Shown here in pieces: positions 1-33,811 of a stretch of DNA of 37,234 bases (positions are counted from its first letter, which is position 1; each line of letters opens with the position of its first letter). The stretch is from a virus (Duplodnaviria > Caudoviricetes), in the IMG/VR virus record IMGVR_UViG_3300042262_000164, positions 1-37,234 of that record; one strand, 5' to 3'. The position numbers and the translations under genes were made by a program. Below the pieces are notes generated by a model. The model saw nothing but the letters and a program-made list of their open reading frames with translations. It was not told where the DNA came from and ran no database searches.

Positions 1-2938
1 CTTCAAGATGGATGAGTTTCCGGAGAGTAAAAATCTGAAGCGCTTTTCTATAACTTTCCTCTGCGCTTGTGAATTGGCGCCGCTCTGACGCGATTCTTCC
101 GAGAAGGAAGAAATTTTGTGCAGAGAACACGTCTTTTGCAGATTGATCAGAAACGGGGGCTAGGAATCGGAGCGCTGCCTCAGAACTCTTCTGTGCCGCA
201 TCGAGTTGGTTGAGCAGCATTAGTCGTTGGCTGGCGTCACCGATTAGGCCGACCATCTCGAGACGCCGTTCGTCGTCGAGTGTCTCGGGCGGATAGGTTT
301 CGAGCGCCGCGATGACCTTGCGCACGAGGCGCTCTCCAGCCGCATTTTGTCGCGTTTCCGTATAGTGCTGCAGTATCGGCGCAACGAAATTTAGGATTCT
401 CTCATGTAATACGAGTGCCTGGTCGAGGGCGGTGGAGAAGGTCTCGAGTTCGATCGCGGTGAGTAGGCGGCCGAGCCTGCGTTGATCGGCGTTGGCTTCG
501 TTCATGAGACGGATGATGTGGTCTCCGAAGCCCCACATATAACGCCGAAATGCGCGATGGATTGCTTCGCGGATCTCGGCGCGCTCGGTAGCGGTGAGGC
601 GGCGCTCGAGGAACCAGGGCAGGATCGGTTGTGGCGCGAGATAGTCCGCCGCCGCCGCGCCGGGATCCGGATGCGGCTGGACGAGCCCCCACGTCGCCGC
701 CGCAGAAAAAGCCTCCCCCCAGGCATCGGTGGGCAGGTCGGCCAGCAGCGGCTCATTCGCCAGTTCCTCGACGTAGCGGTCGAAGAACGGCCCTCGAACT
801 GCGGCCTTGAAGGGGGCGAGGCACTCTAGCAGGCGCCGGGTGCCGGGGTCGAGATTGGCGTGGGAATACTCGACGCAGGCGAGGATGCTCTCGGTGCGCT
901 CGGTGCCCGCGGCGTCGAGATCAGCCGCGCCTTCCGAGAGCGCCGCCAGTACATCTTCCGGGCTTTGCTGCGCGAGGTTCGGCAGCACTACCTCAAGCGC
1001 CAGCGGATGGCCGGCGAGCAACCGCGTCAGCCGCCTCATCGCATCCGAGCCTATATTGGCCGCGAGCCCCGCGCGCGCGAGAATTCGTTCTGTCAGATCC
1101 GAAGCCGCCTCTGCGTCGAGCCCGCGTAGCGGGTAGGACCGCCCCTCGATCGCGGACGCGAGCCAGGGCACTGGCCCGCGTGAACCGAGCAGCACCAGGC
1201 TCGCCCCGCCGACGAGACGTGCGAGGAAGGTCGCAATCTCCGCCCGCCGCGGTTCTGAGAGCTGATTACGGATCGCGAAGGCCTCGGCGGTCACCGACTC
1301 AAGATTGTCGAGAATCAGCAGTCGACGCCGCCGGCGCAGCGCCTGAGCGATCTTCTCACCTTGCGCCAGTGCCGAAAGGATAGCGAAACGCTTCGCCTCC
1401 TGCGGCGGCAGCACCTGATCCGCCAGCTCGGCTAGGATCGCCTCAAGTGTCCAGGCCTGCGCGTCGTAGCCGAAGTAGTCCGCGCCCTCGATCCAGCCGG
1501 TGCGTTCCCACCATGCTGCTAGATGCTTGAGTAGCGCGGTCTTGCCGGTACCGCCGCCACCGTGGATCAGCAGCAGCTCGCGTTCCTGAAGCCGCCGCTC
1601 GATCTCGAGAATGTCGAGGTCGCGGCCGAGGAAGCCTCCCGTCGCGGTGCGCGGCTCGGCCGCCCCCAGGCGCGCCTGGCGCTCAAGCCAGATCTCCTCC
1701 TCCTCGGGATACATCCGCCGGGGCTCGAGCTTCGAGTCCTCGCGCTGGTAGAGCACCGGCAGGATCCAGTCCTTGAGCTGGATCTGCTGATTGAAATAGG
1801 CGCGCCGCCCGGTCTCATTGGCCAGCTCCAGCCGCGCTCGGCGCAGCGCCTCGCCGAGCGGCGTCGGCTCGAGCAGTGCGCGATAGAGCACCGGCATCAT
1901 CCTGGCCGCCGCGCTCACCGTGATCGAATAGCTCATCGCCACCACGTTGCGCGCGCCCGCGTCCAGCAACCGCGCTCCAAGGCTGGTCTCGCGCTCGCCC
2001 CCGGTCTGCTTGCCCGACTGGCAGGCATTCAGGATCGCGATCGGAACGCGGTACTTTGCGAGCAGCGCCGCAACCTCCTCCGCCGAGGCGAGGTCATGGC
2101 GCGGATCCTCCGGGCGCAGCGGGCGCTTCTCCGGCTCGAAGACCAAAAAGCCGTCCTTGCCGTCGAAGGCGGCGATCTGCTGCTCGCGCCCGTAGCGCAT
2201 GCTGAGCTGGTCCAGCGGCGTGCCTTCGCCGCGGATCGCCGCCTCTACCTCGGCATGGCTCAGTAGCGCGCCGTGCAGGTCGAAATGCACCACGTGGTAG
2301 GGCCGGTCCTTGCGATCCTCCAGCCGTTTGGCGAGCGCGGGATAGGTGCCGGGGCGTAGCAGGTCGATCTCGACTGATAGCCCGGCGTCGCCGAGCGCCT
2401 CGATCAACGGCCGCGAGATCGTGCGATAGCCGACATCCTTCGCCCCGCCCGGCCGTGCCGTGACCACCAGCACCCGGATCGTCGGCGCCGCGCGGTCGAA
2501 CTCGGCGAGGTCGATCCCTGCCTTGCGCGAGGCGCGCGACAGCGAGGCCTCGGTCGCCAGCGGGCCCCGATCAGGGTCGCGCAGCGTCTCCCAGTGAAGC
2601 GCCTGAAACGCCGGCGAGCCCGCGATCTCAACCCGGCGCGGACCCGGCCCGCTCCGCCACCGCTCATAGGCCAATCGGGCGGAGGTAGCCGCGAACAACT
2701 GCTGGAACAGCGCATCGCCATAATCCACGATGCCGCGCTCCGCCGAGGCCGCTTTCGCCCCGCCCAGCATCGGCAGCTTCAGCCAGTCCTCGAAATACCA
2801 TTCGAGCGCCGCCTCCCGGCCGTCGTTCTCCGCTCCAAACGGATCGCGGATCTCGACCGGACCGAACTGGACTCCTCCGATCTCCAGGCTAGCTGAAAAC
2901 ACTCCGCCTACGCAGGCAAGCTCCCGTACCGCGATCAT
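1..2938 (-). CDS. CHAT (caspase-like) protease + STAND/NB-ARC-like NTPase + TPR protein, paralog B (3' end beyond window)
   Basis: Not in the ORF track because it has no stop in the window. Manual translation from ATG 2938 (GAGGA RBS upstream) gives MIAVRELACVGGVFSASLEIGG..., CHAT dyad VVHFDLHG / ILNACQSG, FLGRDLDI, Walker A GGGGTGKT, Walker B LLILDNLE, GHPLAL, and TPR-like LLGRIASERRQFTSAEESYRKALQIF at the edge; frame open to base 2. Confidence 0.9.
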   Translation of the reverse strand, partial: MIAVRELACVGGVFSASLEIGGVQFGPVEIRDPFGAENDGREAALEWYFEDWLKLPMLGGAKAASAERGIVDYGDALFQQLFAATSARLAYERWRSGPGPRRVEIAGSPAFQALHWETLRDPDRGPLATEASLSRASRKAGIDLAEFDRAAPTIRVLVVTARPGGAKDVGYRTISRPLIEALGDAGLSVEIDLLRPGTYPALAKRLEDRKDRPYHVVHFDLHGALLSHAEVEAAIRGEGTPLDQLSMRYGREQQIAAFDGKDGFLVFEPEKRPLRPEDPRHDLASAEEVAALLAKYRVPIAILNACQSGKQTGGERETSLGARLLDAGARNVVAMSYSITVSAAARMMPVLYRALLEPTPLGEALRRARLELANETGRRAYFNQQIQLKDWILPVLYQREDSKLEPRRMYPEEEEIWLERQARLGAAEPRTATGGFLGRDLDILEIERRLQERELLLIHGGGGTGKTALLKHLAAWWERTGWIEGADYFGYDAQAWTLEAILAELADQVLPPQEAKRFAILSALAQGEKIAQALRRRRRLLILDNLESVTAEAFAIRNQLSEPRRAEIATFLARLVGGASLVLLGSRGPVPWLASAIEGRSYPLRGLDAEAASDLTERILARAGLAANIGSDAMRRLTRLLAGHPLALEVVLPNLAQQSPEDVLAALSEGAADLDAAGTERTESILACVEYSHANLDPGTRRLLECLAPFKAAVRGPFFDRYVEELANEPLLADLPTDAWGEAFSAAATWGLVQPHPDPGAAAADYLAPQPILPWFLERRLTATERAEIREAIHRAFRRYMWGFGDHIIRLMNEANADQRRLGRLLTAIELETFSTALDQALVLHERILNFVAPILQHYTETRQNAAGERLVRKVIAALETYPPETLDDERRLEMVGLIGDASQRLMLLNQLDAAQKSSEAALRFLAPVSDQSAKDVFSAQNFFLLGRIASERRQFTSAEESYRKALQIFTLRKLIHLE

Positions 2939-2966
2939 CAACCCAGATCCTCAAATCAACGAAATC

Positions 2967-3284
2967 TCAAGGACGCTCCACTCTCAGCTTCAGTTGGCCG
3001 CCATGCCCGTCCTCAACGACGATGTTGAAGGGAGCCTGCGGCTTCGGCCCCCCGCCGAACAGCTTCTTGAGCCCGGCGATGATAAGGTCCTTACCGACAC
3101 CGCTGGCAACACCGATGACGATCGCGGTCCCAATTGAGACTGGATCGATCGGGAAGCTCTGTCCCGCGCCTGGGGCCATCGCGTTGCCCCGCCGGAAAAG
3201 TTCTGGATCCGCATTCCATTTCGCGCAGAGCGTATCCGCATCGCCCAATCCCTCGGCGATCGATACAATGACCAGGTCCGACAT
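2967..3284 (-). CDS. Small (105 aa) hydrophobic-helix protein, candidate protease partner/substrate (EACC1/Trypco/Pepco-like position and size)
   Basis: ATG at 3284 with GGAGG RBS; central apolar Gly-rich segment DPVSIGTAIVIGVASGVGKDLIIAGLKKLF; stop is 28 bp upstream of the paralog B start. Confidence 0.7.
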   Translation of the reverse strand: MSDLVIVSIAEGLGDADTLCAKWNADPELFRRGNAMAPGAGQSFPIDPVSIGTAIVIGVASGVGKDLIIAGLKKLFGGGPKPQAPFNIVVEDGHGGQLKLRVERP

Positions 3285-3299
3285 GTCCGACTCTCCCTC

Positions 3300-3486
3300 C
3301 GTTTCGCCGCCTTTGTGTCGCCGAGCATCGGCAGCTTCAGCTAGTACCATTCGAGCACCGCTTCGCTTCCACCGCCCTCGGCCGAACAGATCGTTGACCC
3401 TTACGGCACCGAACTGGCCCCCATCAATCTCTACGCTCGCGGGAAAAAAGCCCGTCCACGCATGAAACCTCCCGGATCAGGATCAC
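3300..3486 (-). pseudogene. Degenerate 5' remnant of a third CHAT-STAND paralog
   Basis: Aligns by eye to 6285-6467 and 2755-2938; reads MILIREVSCVDGLFS / ASVEIDGGQFGAVRVNDLFG / AEGGGSEAVLEWY*LKLPMLG with two frameshifts, a 9-nt deletion and a TAG; its GTG overlaps the TGA of paralog A. Confidence 0.85.
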
Positions 3487-6467
3487 TTTTTATCCTCCAA
3501 GGCCCTAATTATGGAATTAAGTTCATACGATGACAAATCCACGTCGTGATCTGGATTCTGATCGCGAGAATTTGCGTAACCACGGCGTATCTGTGGGCGA
3601 CTTGTTCGATTTGCTCCGGTGCTAAAGTTCTCTCTAATCGATAGAACGATGCCGTCTGCTATGTATTTCGGGAAAATGTCAATGGATTCTACAACTCGAA
3701 CCATGATGTCGCATACTCTCTGTAGAGTATCCAACTCATTTGTAATGTAGAAATAGGATGCTAAATAGTCTAAAACATGAATTATAGAGATTCTGAAAGA
3801 TATATTGCTTTCAATTATGTTTACATTTTGAATGTTCCCATATACGAAGTTTACAAATTCATTTATAATTAATGGATCCTGTGAAATGTGGTAAATTGCA
3901 CAGTCGAATATATGATGCATCTCGCGGCCATCTCGAATGCATTCACATACAGAATAACGTATTGTGTCGAACTCCGTCAGCAGCCTAATTCTTGCGAGAT
4001 GCCTGTCTATCTCGTGACCTGATTCAATAAGTTTTAAGATATCCCTGCAAGAACACTCCATGGAGCACAAGAACGCTCGCTTGATGGACGCTCTTTGTTC
4101 ATGAGGCAAGCTATCGTATTTTGCATTTATGAACCAAATGGCTGATTTACTTAATTTTGAATATCCTATATTTTTAGAAGACGTTAAACTATTGAGAGCA
4201 TATCTCTCCATGAGGCGGTCTTCATTTAGAATTTTCTTCCACCCCTCTGTCGAGAGGCTAGACAGTTCCGGCTGCTTCGCCAGTTCTCCTGCATATTGCT
4301 CGAGCATGGGCGCGTATATCGCCGCTTTGAACGGAGCGAGGCATTCGAGCAGGTGCTTGATGTCAGGGTCGAGATGGGCGTGGGTGAATTCGACGCAGGC
4401 GAGGATACTCGCGGTGTGCTCAGTTTCTTCCGAGTCGGGATCAGCCGCGTTCTCTGAGAGCGCCGCCAACACTTCCTCAGCGTTCTGCCGGGCTAGGTTC
4501 GACAGCACCACCTCAAGCGCCAACGGATGGCCGGAGAGCAGCTGCGTCAGCTGCTTCATCGCATTCGAGCTTATGTCAGGGGCGAGCCCCGCTCGCGCGA
4601 GGATCCGCGCCGCCAGCTCCGAAGCCGCCTCTGCGTCGAGCCCGCGCAGCGGGTAGTCCGCACCTTGGGTCGCGGCCGAGAGCCAGGGCACCGGCCCGCG
4701 CGACCCGAGAAGCACCAGGGTCGCGCCGCCCGCCAAGCGCGCGAGGAAGTCGGCGATCTCCTCCCGCCGCGCCTCAGGTAGCTCGTTGCGAATCGCGAAG
4801 GCCTCGGGGGTGACGGATTCGAGATTGTCGAGGATCAGCAGTCGACGCTGCTCATGCCTGCGCAGCGCCTCGACGATCTTCTGGCCCTGCGCCGACGCCG
4901 AGAGTTGCGCGAAACCCTTCCTGCCGGGCTCGTCAAGGACCCTCCCCGCTAGCTCGGCCAGTATCGCCTCGAGTGTCCAGGCCCGCGCGTCATAGCCGAA
5001 GTAATCCGATCCTTCGATCCAGCCGGTGCGTTCCCACCAGGCCGCCAGATGCTTGAGTAGCGTGGTCTTGCCGGTGCCTCCACTACCGTGGATCAGCAGC
5101 AGGTTGCGCTCGCCGAGTCGCCGCTCGATCTCGAGGATGTCGAGGTCGCGGCCGAGGAAGGATCCGGTCGCGGTTGGCGGCTCGCCCGCCCGCATGCGCG
5201 CTTGGCGCTCGAGCCAGGCCTCCTCCTCGTCGGGATGCATCGGCCGGGGCGCGAGCTCGGCCTCCTCGCGCTGATAGAGAACCGGCAGAACCCAGTCCTG
5301 AAGCTGGATCTGCTGGTTGAAATGGGCGCGCCGCCCGGTTTCGTTCGCAAGCTTCAACCGCGCCCGACGCAGCGCCTCGCCGAGCGGCAGCGGTTTGAGC
5401 AGCGCGTCATAGAGCACCGGCATCAATTTGGCCGCCGCGCTCACCGTGATCGAATGGCTCATTGCCACTACATTGCGCGCGCCCGCGTCCAGTAGCCGTG
5501 CGCCGAGGCTGGTCTCGCGTTCGCCGCCCGACTGCTTGCCCGACTGACAGGCGTTCAGGATCGCGATCGGAACGCGGTGCTTCGCGAGAAGGCTTCCCAC
5601 CTCGGTCGCCGAGGCGAAATCATGGCGCGGATCCTCCGGGCGCACAGGGCGCTTGTCTGGCTCGAAGACTAGAAAGCCAACTTTGCCTTCGAAGGCGGCG
5701 ATCTGATGCTCGCGCCCATAGCGCATGGTGAGCTGGACTGGCTTAGTTCCTTCGCCCCGCATTGCCGCCTCCACCTCTGAGTGACTCAGCAGCGCGCCGT
5801 GCAGGTCGAAATGCACTACTTGATACGGCCGGTCCTTGCTGCCGTCCAGGCGCTTGTCCAGCGCGGCATAGGTGCCAGGGCGAAGCAAGTCCACCTCGAC
5901 CCGCAGTCCAGCGTCGCCGAGCGCTTCGATCAGCGGCCGAGAGATGGTGCGATAGCCGACCTCCTTCGCGCCGCCCGGCCGCGCCGTGACTACCAGCACC
6001 CGGATCGTCGGCGCCTCGCGATCAAACTCGGCTAGGTCGATCCCCGCCTCGCGTGAGGCGCGCGACAGGGATGCCTCGGTCGCCAGCGCCCGGCCCCGAT
6101 CGGGATCGCGCAGTGCCTCCCAACGCAGCGCTTGGAACGCCGGCGAGCCGGCAATCTCGATCTGGCGCGGCCCGGCGCGCGCTAGCCAACGTTCATAGGC
6201 CAATCGGGTGCGGGTGGCCGCGAACAACTGTTGGAACAGCACATCGCCATATTCGGCGATGCTGCGCGCCGCCGTCTCCGCCTTCCTGCTGTTGAGCATC
6301 GGCAGCTTGAGCCAGTCCTCGAAATACCATTCGAGCACCGACTCCCGCTCATCGCCCTCGGCCCCGAACGGATCGCTGATCGTGACGGGGCCGAACTGGC
6401 CGCCATCAATCTCTAAGCTCGCTGAAAATGCCCCGTTCGCGCATGAAAGCTCCCGAACAAGGATCAT
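3483..6467 (-). CDS. CHAT protease + STAND NTPase + divergent helical C-terminus, paralog A (about 994 aa)
   Basis: ORF 3483..6539; start moved to ATG 6467 (MILVRELSC) by alignment with paralog B. Motifs VVHFDLHG, ILNACQSG, GSGGTGKTT, LLILDNLE, GHPLAL. Confidence 0.9.
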   Translation of the reverse strand: MILVRELSCANGAFSASLEIDGGQFGPVTISDPFGAEGDERESVLEWYFEDWLKLPMLNSRKAETAARSIAEYGDVLFQQLFAATRTRLAYERWLARAGPRQIEIAGSPAFQALRWEALRDPDRGRALATEASLSRASREAGIDLAEFDREAPTIRVLVVTARPGGAKEVGYRTISRPLIEALGDAGLRVEVDLLRPGTYAALDKRLDGSKDRPYQVVHFDLHGALLSHSEVEAAMRGEGTKPVQLTMRYGREHQIAAFEGKVGFLVFEPDKRPVRPEDPRHDFASATEVGSLLAKHRVPIAILNACQSGKQSGGERETSLGARLLDAGARNVVAMSHSITVSAAAKLMPVLYDALLKPLPLGEALRRARLKLANETGRRAHFNQQIQLQDWVLPVLYQREEAELAPRPMHPDEEEAWLERQARMRAGEPPTATGSFLGRDLDILEIERRLGERNLLLIHGSGGTGKTTLLKHLAAWWERTGWIEGSDYFGYDARAWTLEAILAELAGRVLDEPGRKGFAQLSASAQGQKIVEALRRHEQRRLLILDNLESVTPEAFAIRNELPEARREEIADFLARLAGGATLVLLGSRGPVPWLSAATQGADYPLRGLDAEAASELAARILARAGLAPDISSNAMKQLTQLLSGHPLALEVVLSNLARQNAEEVLAALSENAADPDSEETEHTASILACVEFTHAHLDPDIKHLLECLAPFKAAIYAPMLEQYAGELAKQPELSSLSTEGWKKILNEDRLMERYALNSLTSSKNIGYSKLSKSAIWFINAKYDSLPHEQRASIKRAFLCSMECSCRDILKLIESGHEIDRHLARIRLLTEFDTIRYSVCECIRDGREMHHIFDCAIYHISQDPLIINEFVNFVYGNIQNVNIIESNISFRISIIHVLDYLASYFYITNELDTLQRVCDIMVRVVESIDIFPKYIADGIVLSIRENFSTGANRTSRPQIRRGYANSRDQNPDHDVDLSSYELNSIIRALEDKK

Positions 6468-6811
6468 CAGGCAGACCTTCGAGTCATTCTTACTGAAATA
6501 GACGAGGGTAACTTTCGGCGCGGACGTACGCGGTTTCAAGCGAATTTAGCGGCGCATGGCTACAAATCGGGCGACAGAGAGAGGTTGGCCAGCCGGCGAC
6601 TCTTGCCAAGGCTGACGCTTCGCTGCCCAACTTGCGCAGCGGCGAGGGCTAATGACAATGGGCAAGAGGCCTCGGGAGAAGATCGCAGGATTGGCCCGAC
6701 GCCCACTTGTGGGTTGCAACGGCTCCCGGAGCATTCCAACGGCGAAATTTTACTTCCTACCCTCGCCCATAGGCTTGGCGCGTTTCCAAGGAAAAAACGT
6801 TGACGCAGGTG

Positions 6812-7552
6812 TTACACGAGAGCAAGGGAGCTCCAGGTGTGCGGCCCTACAATGCCATCCACCTGCAAGCACGCGCGCTTCTGGAAGTCGCGCACTGCCC
6901 TATCCGTATCCCACCCAAAGCAGCCATCCACGGCTATCGCGAGCGCCTCTTGCAGTCTTCGCACAGCGGGACCGCTGTCGCCCCAGCGCAGTACGACTGC
7001 CGATGGACCGCCGCAGCGGCGCTGGTGCGCAGCCTCGATTCGCGCCGCGTAGCCCGCGACATTGGCGCCGCCGTTGTACCGCGCGGCGAAGCCGCGCCAG
7101 TCCCCCGCCCGAAGCGGCGCCGCCAGCCCCCAGCTCCGGATTAGCGCGACTAAGGCCCCGACCTGCGCGCCCTCGTCGTCAGCCATCGCCTCGACCATCG
7201 CCGAGGTGGAGGCGTAGCCCGCCGCGCCGGCGTTGAAGCCCATGATCTGAGGCCCACCCCAGCTCGTCGCGCGGAGCGCGTCATCGTGATCCACCGCGAA
7301 TGCGGCCGCGAACTTCGCCTCGCGCGCCCCCGCCGAGAGCAGCGCGCTGCTCCGCCAGGTCCCGTCCGGCCTGCGGAGCTTGTGCGGCTCGAAGCGCCGC
7401 TCGAGCGAGCCGTCGGCGCGGAACGGACCGCCGGAGCATTCGACGTCCCAGACCGCGCGGATCGCCGCGACCGGACAGGCGAGCGCCTCGGCTGCGCGCG
7501 CGAAATCCTCCGGCCCCGCGCGCCGCGCGGCACCGATCCAATGGCATGTCAT
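6812..7552 (-). CDS. Endolysin: N-acetylmuramidase (DUF3380-like) + C-terminal peptidoglycan-binding domain
   Basis: AIRAVWDVE, FEPH, ATSWGGPQIMGFN, FAARYNG; C-terminal LRWGDSGPAVRRLQ...VDGCFG..T..AVRDFQ...VDGIVGPHTW. Confidence 0.88.
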   Translation of the reverse strand: MTCHWIGAARRAGPEDFARAAEALACPVAAIRAVWDVECSGGPFRADGSLERRFEPHKLRRPDGTWRSSALLSAGAREAKFAAAFAVDHDDALRATSWGGPQIMGFNAGAAGYASTSAMVEAMADDEGAQVGALVALIRSWGLAAPLRAGDWRGFAARYNGGANVAGYAARIEAAHQRRCGGPSAVVLRWGDSGPAVRRLQEALAIAVDGCFGWDTDRAVRDFQKRACLQVDGIVGPHTWSSLALV

Positions 7553-26921: not shown

Positions 26922-28085
26922 GTGGGACTTCGCTACCGCCAGTCATTTCAGCTCTTCCCCGGGGTCCGGATCAACATCAGCAATAGCGGCATCAGCACCT
27001 CCCTCGGGGTGCCGGGTGCCACGGTAAACCTCAGTGCCCGGGGCGTGGCGTCGACCGTCGGCATTCCCGGGACCGGGCTTTCCTATTCCGCTCGTTTGCC
27101 CACTGCCTTCGTCCCGCCGCCGGTCCATCCACGCCAGGAGCCCACCTTCCTTCCAGAGCCGAAACTTTCTCGACCGGACCAGCCAAACATCTGGATCCCA
27201 CAGCCCGGCATGCGCGCCATTGCCAGCAATTCTGTGGAATCCCTGACGAGTGAGTCTCTCCTTGATCTTCGCGACATGCTCGTCGCCGCTCGGCGCCAGC
27301 GAACGGAGGTCGATTGCGACCTCTGTGACGCGCGGCAGCTTCTGTCTGGCCGACAGCAGGAACTCGAACGACGACGGGGAAGCCTCTTCCGCTGGTTTTA
27401 CAAGAAGCGAATCGGAGCCCTTGAGGCCGAGGTCCCGACGATCGCGGCGGAGGTAGATCGCCTCGCTGGCTGGTCCACACAGACGGTCATTAAATTGGAT
27501 TTCGAGGGGACCGAACCGGCTCGAGCAGCCTACGCCGTGCTCGTTCGAGCGTTCTCAGCGCTAACCTCTTCGAGCAAGCAGTGGGACCTGACATCCGACC
27601 GCGATACCGATCGCGTAAGGGAGCGTACCGTCGCCAACCGGTCGATCGAACGCCATCCCATCCGCGTAGAGTTTGCCAGGAGCGACCTGGTCGAATTCGA
27701 CGGGCAGGCAATGCGGTTCGAAAACCACAACGGTGAGGACATCTACCTCTACCCCGGAATCGCCCTGATGCCCCGCGCCGACGGCGCCTTTGCCCTCATC
27801 GACATTCGCGAGATCGACCTCGAAGCAGACGGCATACGGTTTCACGAGGACGAGGGAGTCCCGCCTGACGCCGAAGTTCTCGGCAACACGTGGGCCAAGG
27901 CAAACAAGGACGGCTCGCCCGACAGGCGCTTCGCCGACAACTACGCGATCCCGATCTGCGCCTACGGTCTGGTCGCCTTTCGCTCGTCCGGGGGCATCCG
28001 AGAGGAGTATATGTTTTCGAACTGGCGTGCCACGGAAGCGTTCGCCATGGCATTCGTCTCCTACCAGGAGGCCTTGAGGCAGTAG
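26922..28085 (+). CDS. DUF4236-domain protein (about 387 aa), moron
   Basis: GTG 26922 gives MGLRYRQSFQLFPGVRINISNSGISTSLG...TVGIPGTGLSY; coiled coil; C-terminal WAKANKDGSPDRRFADN. Confidence 0.8.
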   Translation: MGLRYRQSFQLFPGVRINISNSGISTSLGVPGATVNLSARGVASTVGIPGTGLSYSARLPTAFVPPPVHPRQEPTFLPEPKLSRPDQPNIWIPQPGMRAIASNSVESLTSESLLDLRDMLVAARRQRTEVDCDLCDARQLLSGRQQELERRRGSLFRWFYKKRIGALEAEVPTIAAEVDRLAGWSTQTVIKLDFEGTEPARAAYAVLVRAFSALTSSSKQWDLTSDRDTDRVRERTVANRSIERHPIRVEFARSDLVEFDGQAMRFENHNGEDIYLYPGIALMPRADGAFALIDIREIDLEADGIRFHEDEGVPPDAEVLGNTWAKANKDGSPDRRFADNYAIPICAYGLVAFRSSGGIREEYMFSNWRATEAFAMAFVSYQEALRQ

Positions 28086-28200
28086 GTTATTGCCATGTTT
28101 ATTCTTTTTGACCAAGAAATACCTACGGTCTGATGAGTAGTTATCGTTTATTTTTTCTCGCGCCTCCGAATTATATCCGGATAAACTAGGAAGAAAACAG

Positions 28201-29034
28201 ATGAATCTTTCTCCAGAACAGATTCAAGGGTATTATCTCCTGTCGGTGGCAGGTGGGTTCATCCTCTATGTGCTCGCGGGGGCGATACCTCCTTCCGGTG
28301 CGGGCATTTCTCGGATGGGGTACTTTGTGCGGGCCGGCGCTTTGGCGCTCGGCTCAACAATTGCCATTATGCTTGCGACTGCGACGCTTCGAACGTTCGC
28401 GCCTTTCGCGCCGCCGTCCCTTCAGGTGGTAACGACCCTCGCTATCGGCCTAGCGAGTGGAGCGTACGCGGGGCTTATGGCCCTTGGTCGGTCTGTAGAT
28501 AGCGGTGGGAGAAGGGCATTCGCGGTCTTTGGTCTCATTCCTTTTGCCAACCTTTGGTTGGCCTTCGCAGCGCCGATTCCCGATCCGGCAAGGCCGCCAT
28601 ATATGCCGAAAAGCGCGTTCCTGCGTTTCTTGGTTGGGTTCCTCTGCCTCTTCATCGGAAGCGCAGCTTCGGGTGGCCTAAGCGCATGGATGGAAACCGG
28701 GCAAGGGTCTACCGCTTTGCTTGAACGAGAGATTGCTTCGATCAACGCTTCGCTGCCAAGAAAATTAGACGAAATTACAACACTTGTGGCGGTTCGGCAC
28801 TACGGATCCGAGAAGAAATTAGTATATGAAAATAGTATTGTTTTATCAGATGGGGCAGTAATAGACTCTGATATACTAAAAAGAAATAACGTTCCCGTTC
28901 TGTGCTCTGACCAAGGTGTGTTGTCTCTTCTTAAGAGTGGCTACCTGTTGGAATATCGCTACGATCTCGTAGATGGCGGATTGGCTGGCGGATTGGCTGG
29001 CGGGTTCACTGTTTCTAGATCTGACTGCCCATGA
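28201..29034 (+). CDS. Multi-pass membrane protein with a C-terminal periplasmic two-Cys domain
   Basis: About 5 hydrophobic segments (DUF805-like GRSVDSG...LIPFANLWL), then LPRKLDEITTL...C...G..LEYRY...DC. Confidence 0.7.
   Translation: MNLSPEQIQGYYLLSVAGGFILYVLAGAIPPSGAGISRMGYFVRAGALALGSTIAIMLATATLRTFAPFAPPSLQVVTTLAIGLASGAYAGLMALGRSVDSGGRRAFAVFGLIPFANLWLAFAAPIPDPARPPYMPKSAFLRFLVGFLCLFIGSAASGGLSAWMETGQGSTALLEREIASINASLPRKLDEITTLVAVRHYGSEKKLVYENSIVLSDGAVIDSDILKRNNVPVLCSDQGVLSLLKSGYLLEYRYDLVDGGLAGGLAGGFTVSRSDCP
28974..29003 (+). repeat. 12-bp tandem repeat x2.5 (tggcggattggc)
   Basis: tggcggattggc tggcggattggc tggcgg, encoding GGLAGGLAGG. Confidence 0.85.
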
Positions 29035-29420
29035 TGCCACGGCTACTCCATCTCTTCCTCCTTCTCCTGCCTGGAGCCCCCTGCTTCGCCCTCACTGCCG
29101 CCGAGAGCCGTGAGATCGCAGCGGAGGTTGAGGCATTGAAGGCGGAACTGCCGCAGCGGATCGACAAGTCGACCACGATGGTCGCGGCTACCTACGAGCC
29201 CGCGCTGGCATTGCTTACCTATTGGGCCAACGTCGAGTTGCGGGTTCCGCCGGAGACGCTGGCGGCGGTCCTTCGCAGAACTCAGCCGCCCCGGACATGC
29301 GTCAACCTGCGCGATATGTTTGAAGCCGGCCTCTCGATGACTTGGGTATACACCGCGACCGACGGCCGGGAGATTGGCACGATATATCTCACGAAGGCCA
29401 ACTGCGAGCAGTGGTGGTAG
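29031..29420 (+). CDS. Secreted small protein with a domain similar to the C-terminus of the upstream gene
   Basis: Signal-peptide-like N-terminus; LPQRIDKSTTM...C...G....WVY...DG...C; ATGA overlap. Confidence 0.7.
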   Translation: MMPRLLHLFLLLLPGAPCFALTAAESREIAAEVEALKAELPQRIDKSTTMVAATYEPALALLTYWANVELRVPPETLAAVLRRTQPPRTCVNLRDMFEAGLSMTWVYTATDGREIGTIYLTKANCEQWW

Positions 29421-32161: not shown

Positions 32162-33667
32162 TCATGCCTCCGCCGCGCCGACGCGATGGACGATGACGGC
32201 GCCGAGGCGGATACCCATGCCGGCGTCGTTGCTGGCGGCGAACTGGACGCCGAGCTCCGCGACGGGGGTCTCCGCGAAGGTCGTGAGCCGATGACCGCGC
32301 CGACGCGCGAGATGCGCGGCCGGCGCCTCGAAGCCCGCGCCGTAGCCGAACTCGATCGGATTGCCGAAGCCCGCGACCGCCGGCAGCGGCGATCCGCCGG
32401 AGGTGCTTTGCACCAGCCGCGCCGCCCAGCTCGCCGCCGTCTGATCCAGCACGTCGAAGGCGAGCAAGTAGCGCCCGGGCGCGTCCACTACGAAATCCTG
32501 TCCCGCCGCTTTCCATTCCGAGCCATCTGCGGCGGAGATCACGAGCGCCCCATCCTCGGCCGCAAGCAAGGCGCCGTTCGTCGCCGCCCAGCCCGACGTC
32601 CCGCTGGCGAAGTCGCCGTTCGCCACCACGCTCGGGCGAGGGTTGGCGCCGAGCCAGTGTTCGTAGATCGCCCAAAAGATCAGCCGAGCGGCGATGTCGC
32701 AGCCCAGCGCGTTGAGGTGCAGCCCGTCGGCGGTGAGCGACGGCGCCGGGCAGTCCGCCGCCTCGGCCGCGCCATCGGCCGTGTCACCGATGATGCCCGC
32801 GAAGACCGCCTCCGACCGAGTATCGACGAAGAGCACCGTCGCGCCATTGGCGAGCGCTGCGAGGCCGGCGTTGATCGCAGCGATCCGGTCATAGGTCGCG
32901 GAGCCGCTGCCCTCGGTCTCATCGTTGCGGTTGTGGACCGAGACCAGGATCAGCACCTGGCCCGGCAGAAGCGCCGCGACGGCGCCGGCCGCGTCGGCGA
33001 TCACTGCCGCCGGATCGGTAGTGTTGTTGCGTCCGGCCCAGAAGACCGAATAGGCCCGGCTCGTCGAACGGGTCGCCCAGCGGGCCAGCGCCTGCGCCGA
33101 GGTCTCGCCCGAGACGGCGTGGCTGGTGACTTCGCCCGGCAGGCCGGCCGCCGCGAGGTAACGCGCCAGGGTCGGGCGGAGCGCGGTGTAGGCGCTCTCG
33201 GCGCCGCCGCCGCTCGAGCCCTCGGCGAAGCTGTCGCCGTAGAGCGCGACGCCGGCGAGCAGCTCGATCTCCGCGCCGCCGAGGCCGGGCGACTGATCGC
33301 AGGCGACGATGCCGAGCGCGCGAAGCTGCGCGAGCTTGCCCGCGATCGCGACCTCGTCCGAGACGCTCGAGTGGAACGCCAGGGCGCGGCGCCCGATCAG
33401 CACCGGCCCGCGCGTAATGGCGCTGGCATCGCGATCGCCGGCTGTCGCGTCGACCTGGGCGGTCAGCACGGCGGCGGCGATTTCGGAGCCGTCCAAGCCG
33501 GTGGCGGGCGAGAGCGTGTAGCTCTCAGTGGCGGCGATCCGGCCGAGGACCGAGCCCGCCGGGTAATCGCGACCGCCGACGAGCCTAACGCGGGCATGCG
33601 CCACGTTCGGCATGCGGTCCCATTTCACCAGGTCGCTCTCGCGCTGGGGTTCGTGCAAGACGGGCAT
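32162..33667 (-). CDS. Head decoration domain + SGNH/GDSL hydrolase + CBM-like fusion (about 501 aa)
   Basis: N-terminal about 122 aa align to 20640..21029 (GSVLG, VDAT.GDR, RGP, K.AQL..LGIVA); SGNH blocks GDSF, SGETS, GRNN, DGLH; C-terminal VANGDFASGTSGW. Confidence 0.82.
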   Translation of the reverse strand: MPVLHEPQRESDLVKWDRMPNVAHARVRLVGGRDYPAGSVLGRIAATESYTLSPATGLDGSEIAAAVLTAQVDATAGDRDASAITRGPVLIGRRALAFHSSVSDEVAIAGKLAQLRALGIVACDQSPGLGGAEIELLAGVALYGDSFAEGSSGGGAESAYTALRPTLARYLAAAGLPGEVTSHAVSGETSAQALARWATRSTSRAYSVFWAGRNNTTDPAAVIADAAGAVAALLPGQVLILVSVHNRNDETEGSGSATYDRIAAINAGLAALANGATVLFVDTRSEAVFAGIIGDTADGAAEAADCPAPSLTADGLHLNALGCDIAARLIFWAIYEHWLGANPRPSVVANGDFASGTSGWAATNGALLAAEDGALVISAADGSEWKAAGQDFVVDAPGRYLLAFDVLDQTAASWAARLVQSTSGGSPLPAVAGFGNPIEFGYGAGFEAPAAHLARRRGHRLTTFAETPVAELGVQFAASNDAGMGIRLGAVIVHRVGAAEA

Positions 33668-33811
33668 GGTCTGCTTTCGGTGGATGGAGCCGCGAGGGCT
33701 CCGTTGGAACGAGGGCAAGACCCTCGCGAATGGGGCATGCGCACCGCGCACCCCAAGATGCGCACCCGAGCCCGAACCCAGAAATTTTCTCTGACACTGG
33801 CGCTTCGCCGG

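What the first reader, a model, noticed from the sequence alone, without database searches (positions are those of the whole stretch)
1..6467. Candidate protease-activated defence system: tandem CHAT-STAND-TPR receptors plus a small hydrophobic partner
Seen: two co-oriented genes of about 1000 aa or more, each with an intact caspase-like His/Cys dyad (HFDLHG, NACQSG), a STAND P-loop (GxGGTGKT, LLILDNLE, GHPLAL) and a helical/TPR tail, flanking a 105-aa gene. Established: STAND NTPases with repeat sensors act as NLR-like receptors (Avs, bacterial NACHT), and CHAT proteases activate co-encoded substrates (bacterial gasdermins, Csx29/Csx30). Inference: sensing of a phage protein oligomerises the NTPase, activates CHAT and cleaves the small protein into a toxic effector, with two receptors sharing one effector. 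I do not recognise this layout as a named system.
Basis: partly seen in the sequence, partly recalled or inferred. Interest (0 to 1): 0.85.

Follow-up and report, generated by a model that had tools for sequence, protein, structure and literature searches.

The report
Phage-borne protease sensor with pore partner
A bacterial virus sequence carries two copies of a gene joining a caspase-like protease to an immune-receptor-like switch, plus a small partner gene that travels with such genes in many microbes, and the complete copy likely cuts that partner into a membrane-damaging piece that would kill a cell invaded by a rival virus, an untested variant of a recently proven defence design.

Summary
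The three genes and the named motifs are real, with two corrections. Gene B is cut by the record end (full length 1267 aa, with TPRs). Gene A has no TPR array: its last 249 aa are an AT-rich, extremely diverged but open copy of the helical region before the TPRs. A frameshifted third 5' copy lies between A and the small gene.

The 105-aa protein matches no Pfam, PADLOC or NCBIfam model. It belongs to an unnamed family (615 clusters) found beside this CHAT-STAND-TPR clade in 31 of 80 genome loci, 28 of them directly upstream. In cyanobacteria an unrelated small hydrophobic protein lies nearby instead (17 of 80; never both).

The partner has the size, predicted element order, loop aspartate and hydrophobic segment of EACC1, which a caspase-Avs protein cleaves into a pore (Evans 2025). 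It has no detectable sequence homology to EACC1, and the protease is CHAT, not the tested caspase. Best reading: an EACC1-like abortive defence pair (small gene plus B) beside a duplicated, sensor-less paralogue (A). Cleavage, toxicity and defence are all inferred. 'Two receptors sharing one effector' is weakly supported. The nearest relative with flanking DNA lacks the small gene.

The parts
1..2938 (-). Gene B: CHAT protease (about aa 73-391; H222, C306), STAND NTPase (K466, D544, GHPL 643), winged-helix/helical region, first TPR. Cut by the record end; full length 1267 aa with a TPR array.
2967..3284 (-). Small partner gene, 105 aa, EACC1-like layout: N-terminal alpha/beta part, loop with D47-P48, glycine-rich hydrophobic segment (about 49-72), C-terminal beta-hairpin. 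Divergent member of an unnamed family linked to CHAT-STAND-TPR genes.
   Evidence: GGAG-rich ribosome site upstream
3304..3486 (-). Frameshifted remnant of a third 5' end of the CHAT-STAND gene (76% identical to A, 69% to B). Its GTG start overlaps the stop of gene A. It explains the 127-aa ORF call for the small gene, whose extra 22 residues lie in the remnant.
3483..6467 (-). Gene A, 994 aa: CHAT (H223, C307) plus STAND (K467, D547, GHPL 646), no TPR array. Sister paralogue of B; core under purifying selection (dN 0.14, dS 0.56).
3486..4232 (-). Tail of gene A (aa 746-994): 38% GC, open frame (0 stops against 16.8 expected), weakly homologous to the family's winged-helix/helical region, the most diverged of 183 compared.
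3508..3536 (-). Sigma-70-like consensus match (TTGTCA-17-CATAAT, 10 of 12) inside the end of gene A, placed to drive the small gene and gene B. Not above chance (2 found, 1.1 +/- 1.0 expected); a lead only.
6812..7552 (-). Context: phage endolysin (muramidase plus peptidoglycan-binding domain), last gene of a head-tail-lysis module upstream of the locus.

Best explanation
The small gene and gene B likely form a two-gene abortive anti-phage module: the TPR arm of B would bind a protein of an invading phage, the STAND domain would oligomerise and switch on the CHAT protease, and the protease would cut the 105-aa partner in its loop near D47, freeing a hydrophobic C-terminal half predicted to damage the membrane as cleaved EACC1 does. 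Shown here: intact catalytic and Walker motifs, conserved pairing of the two gene families, the partner's EACC1-like layout, and a place in the variable slot behind a phage endolysin. Inferred by analogy only: the phage trigger, the cleavage, the pore and the protection. Gene A is a duplicate of B that kept protease and NTPase under selection but lost the TPR array; it most likely is not a second ordinary receptor, and may be a helper, a receptor with a short altered sensor, or a copy on its way out.
For: Linkage: profile hits in 31 of 80 genome loci (28 directly upstream, 2 directly downstream, 1 fragment) from Chloroflexota, Methanotrichaceae, Thermodesulfobacteriota, Bacteroidota and others; 9 of 33 close metagenome loci and 0 of 47 distant CHAT-STAND loci. 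The window protein is a member: a profile built without it finds it at E 8.9e-5 among 10,546 ORF pieces. Layout: predicted elements E2-9 H16-32 E33-36 loop E53-60 H65-77 E87-92 E97-103 against E3-11 H15-32 E37-41 loop E53-59 H60-76 E81-85 E91-96 for the tested EACC1; acidic residue at position 47 in 84% of 142 members, EACC1 is cut at D49; 19-residue hydropathy 1.78 against 1.71. Catalytic His motif in 193 of 193 and Cys motif in 178 of 193 homologues. Two orphan copies of the small gene have lost the hydrophobic segment. Strong PADLOC neighbours at 5 of 26 sampled loci, no control. The slot behind the endolysin in related phages is variable and holds defence-type genes in some.
Against: No sequence homology to EACC1: 0 of 142 members hit PF19953; profile comparison with the tested EACC1 clade gives 0.3% (shallow 9-row template). 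The best fold matches of the two models differ. The tested protease is a different caspase-like type with no profile match to this CHAT-STAND family. The nearest relative with flanking DNA (Thalassobaculum, 65%) has no small gene near it or detected in its genome. 8 of 39 non-cyanobacterial loci with enough flank lack it, and 21 of 37 cyanobacterial loci show neither partner. Of 4 new loci found from the small gene's side, only 2 lie beside a CHAT-STAND gene. D-P is also a common helix cap, and a bond before proline is a poor protease site (own knowledge). 17 of 26 sampled loci had no PADLOC neighbour at all.
Confidence: 0.6

Rival explanations
1. The small protein is a membrane anchor, sensor or inhibitor that binds the CHAT-STAND protein, not a latent toxin; the protease acts on itself or on a host protein.
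For: Many homologues have no partner nearby, so the large protein may work alone. Kaur et al. proposed a sensor role for EACC1 (PMC7159879). Evans et al. describe a caspase that defends without a partner.
Against: For EACC1 the later experiments showed cleavage and membrane leakage. Two unrelated partner families share an aspartate-proline motif before a hydrophobic segment and replace each other, which fits exchangeable substrates.
Confidence: 0.17
2. The pair is a proteolytic signalling or developmental switch unrelated to phage defence, like HetF or DdvA-type CHAT proteins.
For: The family is common in filamentous Chloroflexota and cyanobacteria. Weak HetF hit through the CHAT domain (22 bits against a cut-off of 1200). 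Most sampled loci have no defence neighbour. STAND clades include non-defence members (10.64898/2026.01.04.697583).
Against: Patchy spread across bacteria and archaea; here it lies beside a phage lysis gene; no sigma factor or regulator recurs among neighbours, the only recurring ones being the two small proteins.
Confidence: 0.13
3. On gene A only: it is a working second component, either a receptor with a short altered sensor or a sensor-less helper that co-oligomerises with B, so that two proteases feed one effector.
For: Core under purifying selection (dN/dS about 0.25), all motifs intact, 249-codon AT-rich tail without a stop (0 of 5000 shuffles). One other locus has two such genes behind one small gene (L061/L103).
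Against: No TPR array; tail at 16% identity to the family consensus against a median of 61%; a dead third copy lies beside it, so copies do decay here; no small gene remnant upstream of A; no relative of the tail found in plasmids.
Confidence: 0.35
4. On location only: the locus is host DNA just outside the prophage end, not phage cargo.
For: Related phages have integrases or resolvases within a few kb behind the endolysin. No close homologue in 50,697 phage records; one distant one in viral contigs. An identical viral record stops at window 6494.
Against: One contig joins locus and tail genes; no loose ends at 6494; only 270 bases separate endolysin and gene A; no tRNA or integrase seen in the window.
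Confidence: 0.3

Closest known systems
EACC1 with caspase-Avs12 (Evans et al., 10.1101/2025.11.14.688446; system defined by Kaur et al., PMC7159879)
   Same: Small 5' gene with one glycine-rich hydrophobic segment and alpha+beta ends, followed by a gene with an N-terminal caspase-superfamily protease, STAND NTPase and helical sensor. Same size, same predicted order of elements, aspartate at the matching loop position (D47 against D49).
   Different: No sequence match to PF19953 or to the tested EACC1 clade; no C-terminal helix; protease is CHAT with its cysteine at 306, not the tested caspase with it at 152; no profile match between the large proteins; duplicated sensor-less paralogue; a different partner family in cyanobacteria.
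Avs/AVAST antiviral STAND receptors (Lee et al., 10.64898/2026.01.04.697583)
   Same: Effector-STAND-TPR order.
   Different: No PADLOC or NCBIfam Avs match beyond the P-loop (Avs4 13.7 bits against 1500). The main text searched has no 'CHAT'. Their clade tables could not be read, so this clade may be listed there.
CHAT-NB-ARC/NACHT-TPR bacterial NLR-like proteins (Dyrka et al., 10.1101/2020.01.06.895854)
   Same: CHAT is noted as a frequent N-terminal domain of NLR-like proteins in multicellular bacteria, so the large protein's architecture is known.
   Different: The passages read name no small partner or substrate and no test.
Csx29/Csx30 (type III-E CRISPR) and bacterial gasdermin-protease pairs (details recalled; listed in the introduction of Evans et al.)
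   Same: A caspase-like or CHAT protease cuts a co-encoded protein.
   Different: No CRISPR link, no gasdermin or Csx30 match; activation here would be through STAND.

Membership tests
EACC1 two-gene system | 5' small gene directly before the protease gene | tested here: met
   28 bases before gene B; 28 of 80 genome loci have a homologue directly upstream
EACC1 two-gene system | Single hydrophobic segment with small residues, alpha+beta extensions on both sides | tested here: met
   Hydropathy 1.78; G58, A60, G62, G64; model. The monomer models show part of the segment as a strand in both proteins.
EACC1 two-gene system | Sequence membership of the EACC1 family (PF19953) | tested here: not met
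   0 of 142 members at E 0.1; profile comparison 0.3%. Caveat: the tested EACC1 scores only 27.4 bits against a cut-off of 23.6, so the model is narrow.
EACC1 two-gene system | Same fold as EACC1 | tested here: inconclusive
   Same element order; no direct superposition tool; top library matches differ and are near background
EACC1 two-gene system | N-terminal caspase-superfamily protease with intact His/Cys | tested here: met
   CHAT E 1e-22, H222/C306; a different branch from the tested protease
EACC1 two-gene system | Cleavage frees a toxic, membrane-permeabilising C-terminal fragment | not testable with these tools
   Needs bench work
Avs/AVAST | Effector-STAND-repeat sensor architecture | tested here: met
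   Met for B; A lacks the repeats
Avs/AVAST | Match to a named Avs type | tested here: inconclusive
   None in PADLOC 2023 or NCBIfam 2026; tables for the newer types unreadable
Avs/AVAST | Activation by a phage protein | not testable with these tools
   Needs a co-expression screen

The most novel reading that the evidence does not exclude
A widespread, undescribed CHAT-NLR family that swaps between at least two unrelated small membrane-active substrates sharing an aspartate-proline-hydrophobic-helix motif, each a new protease-released pore former independent of EACC1; in this phage it has duplicated into a sensor (B) and a sensor-less helper (A), a bacterial parallel of paired plant NLRs.
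Probability: 0.15. Interest if true: 0.85.

Novelty: new variant of a known kind. Interest (0 to 1): 0.55.

Why it matters
It offers a concrete candidate substrate for a large, untested family of CHAT-STAND-TPR proteins (at least 862 relatives), and points to two small-protein families that no scanned library holds. If cleavage and toxicity hold, the EACC1 design extends to CHAT proteases and to effectors missed by current profiles, in bacteria and methanogenic archaea. The three-gene locus is small enough to test directly, including whether a sensor-less paralogue helps, harms or does nothing.

Tried and rejected
Complex prediction of the CHAT domain of B with the partner: no answer (0.26 and 0.19, mark 0.32); not used either way.

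Fold searches of the partner model: no Foldseek match at E 0.001 in PDB or BFVD; best wide match Z 8.7, rmsd 2.7, 86 aligned, to a ribosomal protein (eL22, name recalled), near background.

Word-index search with the partner found only itself. Atlas gave unnamed clusters at 0.92-0.93 and an EACC1-bearing cluster at 0.88 (35% of members), a lead only. Searches for EACC1 members in two broad genome samples gave only marginal hits (6 of 151, 7 of 301).

The match of A's tail to alignment A1 (96.9%) is circular, since A1 contains gene A; one search is the clean test. A diversity-generating retroelement was rejected: no reverse transcriptase among 37 scanned ORFs. The 'other letters' are gene B laid on gene A. 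No recombination joint between A and B was listed. No RNA holder listed. DNA beyond the record end was not obtained.

Motif test in the distant clade: 5 of 37 loci, three of them near-identical, against 20 of 679 control windows; not convincing. No homologue in the phage collection. Earlier findings by sequence and by the first word search: nothing.

Full report
Setting. The window is a single 37,234-base virus record. PHROG matches show terminase, portal, head protease, major head, tape measure, tail and endolysin genes (37 ORFs scanned), with a GTA-type tail protein. The three genes lie directly behind the endolysin, on the same strand, at the end of the record. In 18 related viral loci examined (of 80 fetched) this slot is variable; of 33 ORFs scanned from it, some are methylases, integrases or resolvases, and some match SoFic, PDC-S11 and BrxL. 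None of the 80 has a CHAT-STAND gene. Whether the locus is inside the prophage is open.

Observation. B is incomplete here; P0005 gives the whole 1267-aa protein with TPRs. A and B are 81% identical in DNA over 2.15 kb and are sisters at 100% support, next to Thalassobaculum and a Rhodobacteraceae genome (82 rows, L007 left out, quick method). Over residues 1-745 dN is 0.14 and dS 0.56. After residue 745 gene A falls to 38% GC and 17% identity with B. This tail is coding (0 stops; 16.8 expected; 0 of 5000 shuffles) and weakly homologous to the family's winged-helix/helical region (8.0 bits against a profile without A or B; best of 500 shuffles 2.1). It is the most diverged of 183 compared (16% against a median of 61%) and ends about where TPRs begin. 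A frameshifted third 5' copy lies at 3304-3486.

The large protein family. At least 862 relatives were scored. PADLOC and NCBIfam give only P-loop-level or CHAT-level hits. Among 193 homologues of 700 aa or more, the His motif is in 193, the Cys motif in 178, Walker A in 184 and Walker B in 180. Solved-structure matches listed were to TPR regions only (best 60 of 102 shown).

The small protein. It has no library match. In the best 80 of 349 genome loci, a related small gene lies directly upstream in 28, directly downstream in 2, and as a fragment in 1. By record title, 0 of 37 cyanobacterial loci have it. Of 43 others 31 have it, 4 have under 300 bases of flank, and 8 lack it, including the nearest relative. 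A profile from 30 of these, without the window protein, finds the window protein at E 8.9e-5 among 10,546 pieces. The family has 615 clusters at E 0.001. The window protein keeps W23, N24, L11, D47, P48, K73 and G93, and lacks P9 and D70. In the best 80 of 516 metagenome loci, 9 of 33 close ones carry the family (two are the same sequence, one is on the other strand, one downstream) and 0 of 47 distant ones. From the small gene's side, 7 of 351 genomes of one phylum had it; 3 repeat earlier loci, and of 4 new ones 2 lie beside a CHAT-STAND gene and 2 are related orphans whose hydrophobic segment has decayed.

A second partner. An unrelated 140-150-aa protein with a C-terminal hydrophobic hairpin lies near the large gene in 17 of 80 genome loci (16 cyanobacterial by title) and 9 of 33 close metagenome loci, never with the first family. 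It has no Pfam match and 1-3 matches in each of 5 genomes checked, 5 of the 8 beside CHAT-STAND-TPR sequence. The two labels fall on either side of a 100% branch; kin share labels, so this shows clustering, not co-evolution. An acidic residue-proline motif before a hydrophobic stretch is in 94 of 142 members of the first family and 16 of 17 of the second.

Comparison with EACC1. Evans et al. (10.1101/2025.11.14.688446; parts 1-4 of 6 of the text, passages, and one row of Table S1 of PMC12642450 seen) show that a caspase-Avs12 protein cuts EACC1 near D49, that the C-terminal half is toxic and that cleaved protein leaks liposomes; 'CHAT' does not occur in their text. The same protein was fetched as L108/P0275. 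Its model (pLDDT 84) and the window protein's (pLDDT 70) have the same order and spacing of elements, with a low-confidence loop at 41-50 in both. Sequence tests fail: 0 of 142 against PF19953, 0.1-0.7% in profile comparisons. So it likely works like EACC1 but is not filed as EACC1.

Mechanism. Shown: motifs, pairing, layout, setting. From established knowledge of STAND receptors: ligand binding to TPRs drives oligomerisation and activates the N-terminal effector (Lee et al., passages and section 4 seen). Inferred: a phage trigger, cleavage near D47, membrane damage, death of the infected cell. Defence context is modest: of 26 loci sampled (122 nearest ORFs), 5 had strong PADLOC neighbours (Hma, ThsB, HEC-01, MkoC, PDC-S70), 4 partial or generic ones, 17 none; no control was run. 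Confidence 0.6.

Novelty. Eight paper searches listed no paper whose title or abstract start describes this CHAT clade with either partner. Kaur 2020 (passages, section 33, supplement search), Kaur 2021 (passages) and Dyrka 2020 (passages) cover the general architectures. The library lacks most subscription papers. The supplements of Lee et al. and the figure file of Evans et al. could not be read and may list this clade. Verdict: new variant of a known kind, interest 0.55.

Noticed in passing
L060:10366-10812 (-), L041:10294-10746 (-), L025:10849-11268 (+) and 14 more genome loci: Unnamed 140-150-aa cyanobacterial protein with a C-terminal hydrophobic hairpin, found beside CHAT-STAND-TPR genes wherever the window-type partner is missing; a candidate second effector.
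   Followed up: partly
L168:7227-7553, L160:5041-5388, L158:1536-1913, L159:238-618: Further small proteins with an acidic residue-proline motif and hydrophobic helix near distant CHAT-STAND genes; L168 has an EACC1-like layout; no Pfam match.
   Followed up: partly
L106:5617-5952 (-), L107:2847-3206 (+): Orphan copies of the small gene beside a PAS histidine kinase, with the hydrophobic segment decayed.
   Followed up: partly
L061 / L103: One small gene followed by two overlapping CHAT-STAND genes in a Ktedonobacteraceae genome, the only other tandem seen.
   Followed up: no
window 27561-29420: Low-GC stretch (52% at 28001-29000) with ORFs 27561-28115 (-), 28201-29034 (+), 29031-29420 (+) lacking PHROG matches, the first two also lacking Pfam and PADLOC matches; possibly a second accessory slot.
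   Followed up: partly
window 32162-33751 (-): ORF with a head-decoration-like N-terminus and a lipase/tail-fibre-like part, far from the structural genes.
   Followed up: no
window 1-600: Third-position GC of gene B also drops (0.8 to 0.4-0.5) towards the TPR region, less sharply than in gene A.
   Followed up: no
L083, L084, L087: EACC1-scoring small ORFs directly upstream of a gene resembling ADP-ribosylglycohydrolase (label from my reading of the sequence, not scanned) instead of a protease.
   Followed up: no
L216:12900-17135 (+): 1412-aa ORF behind the endolysin of a related phage with no Pfam or PADLOC match.
   Followed up: no
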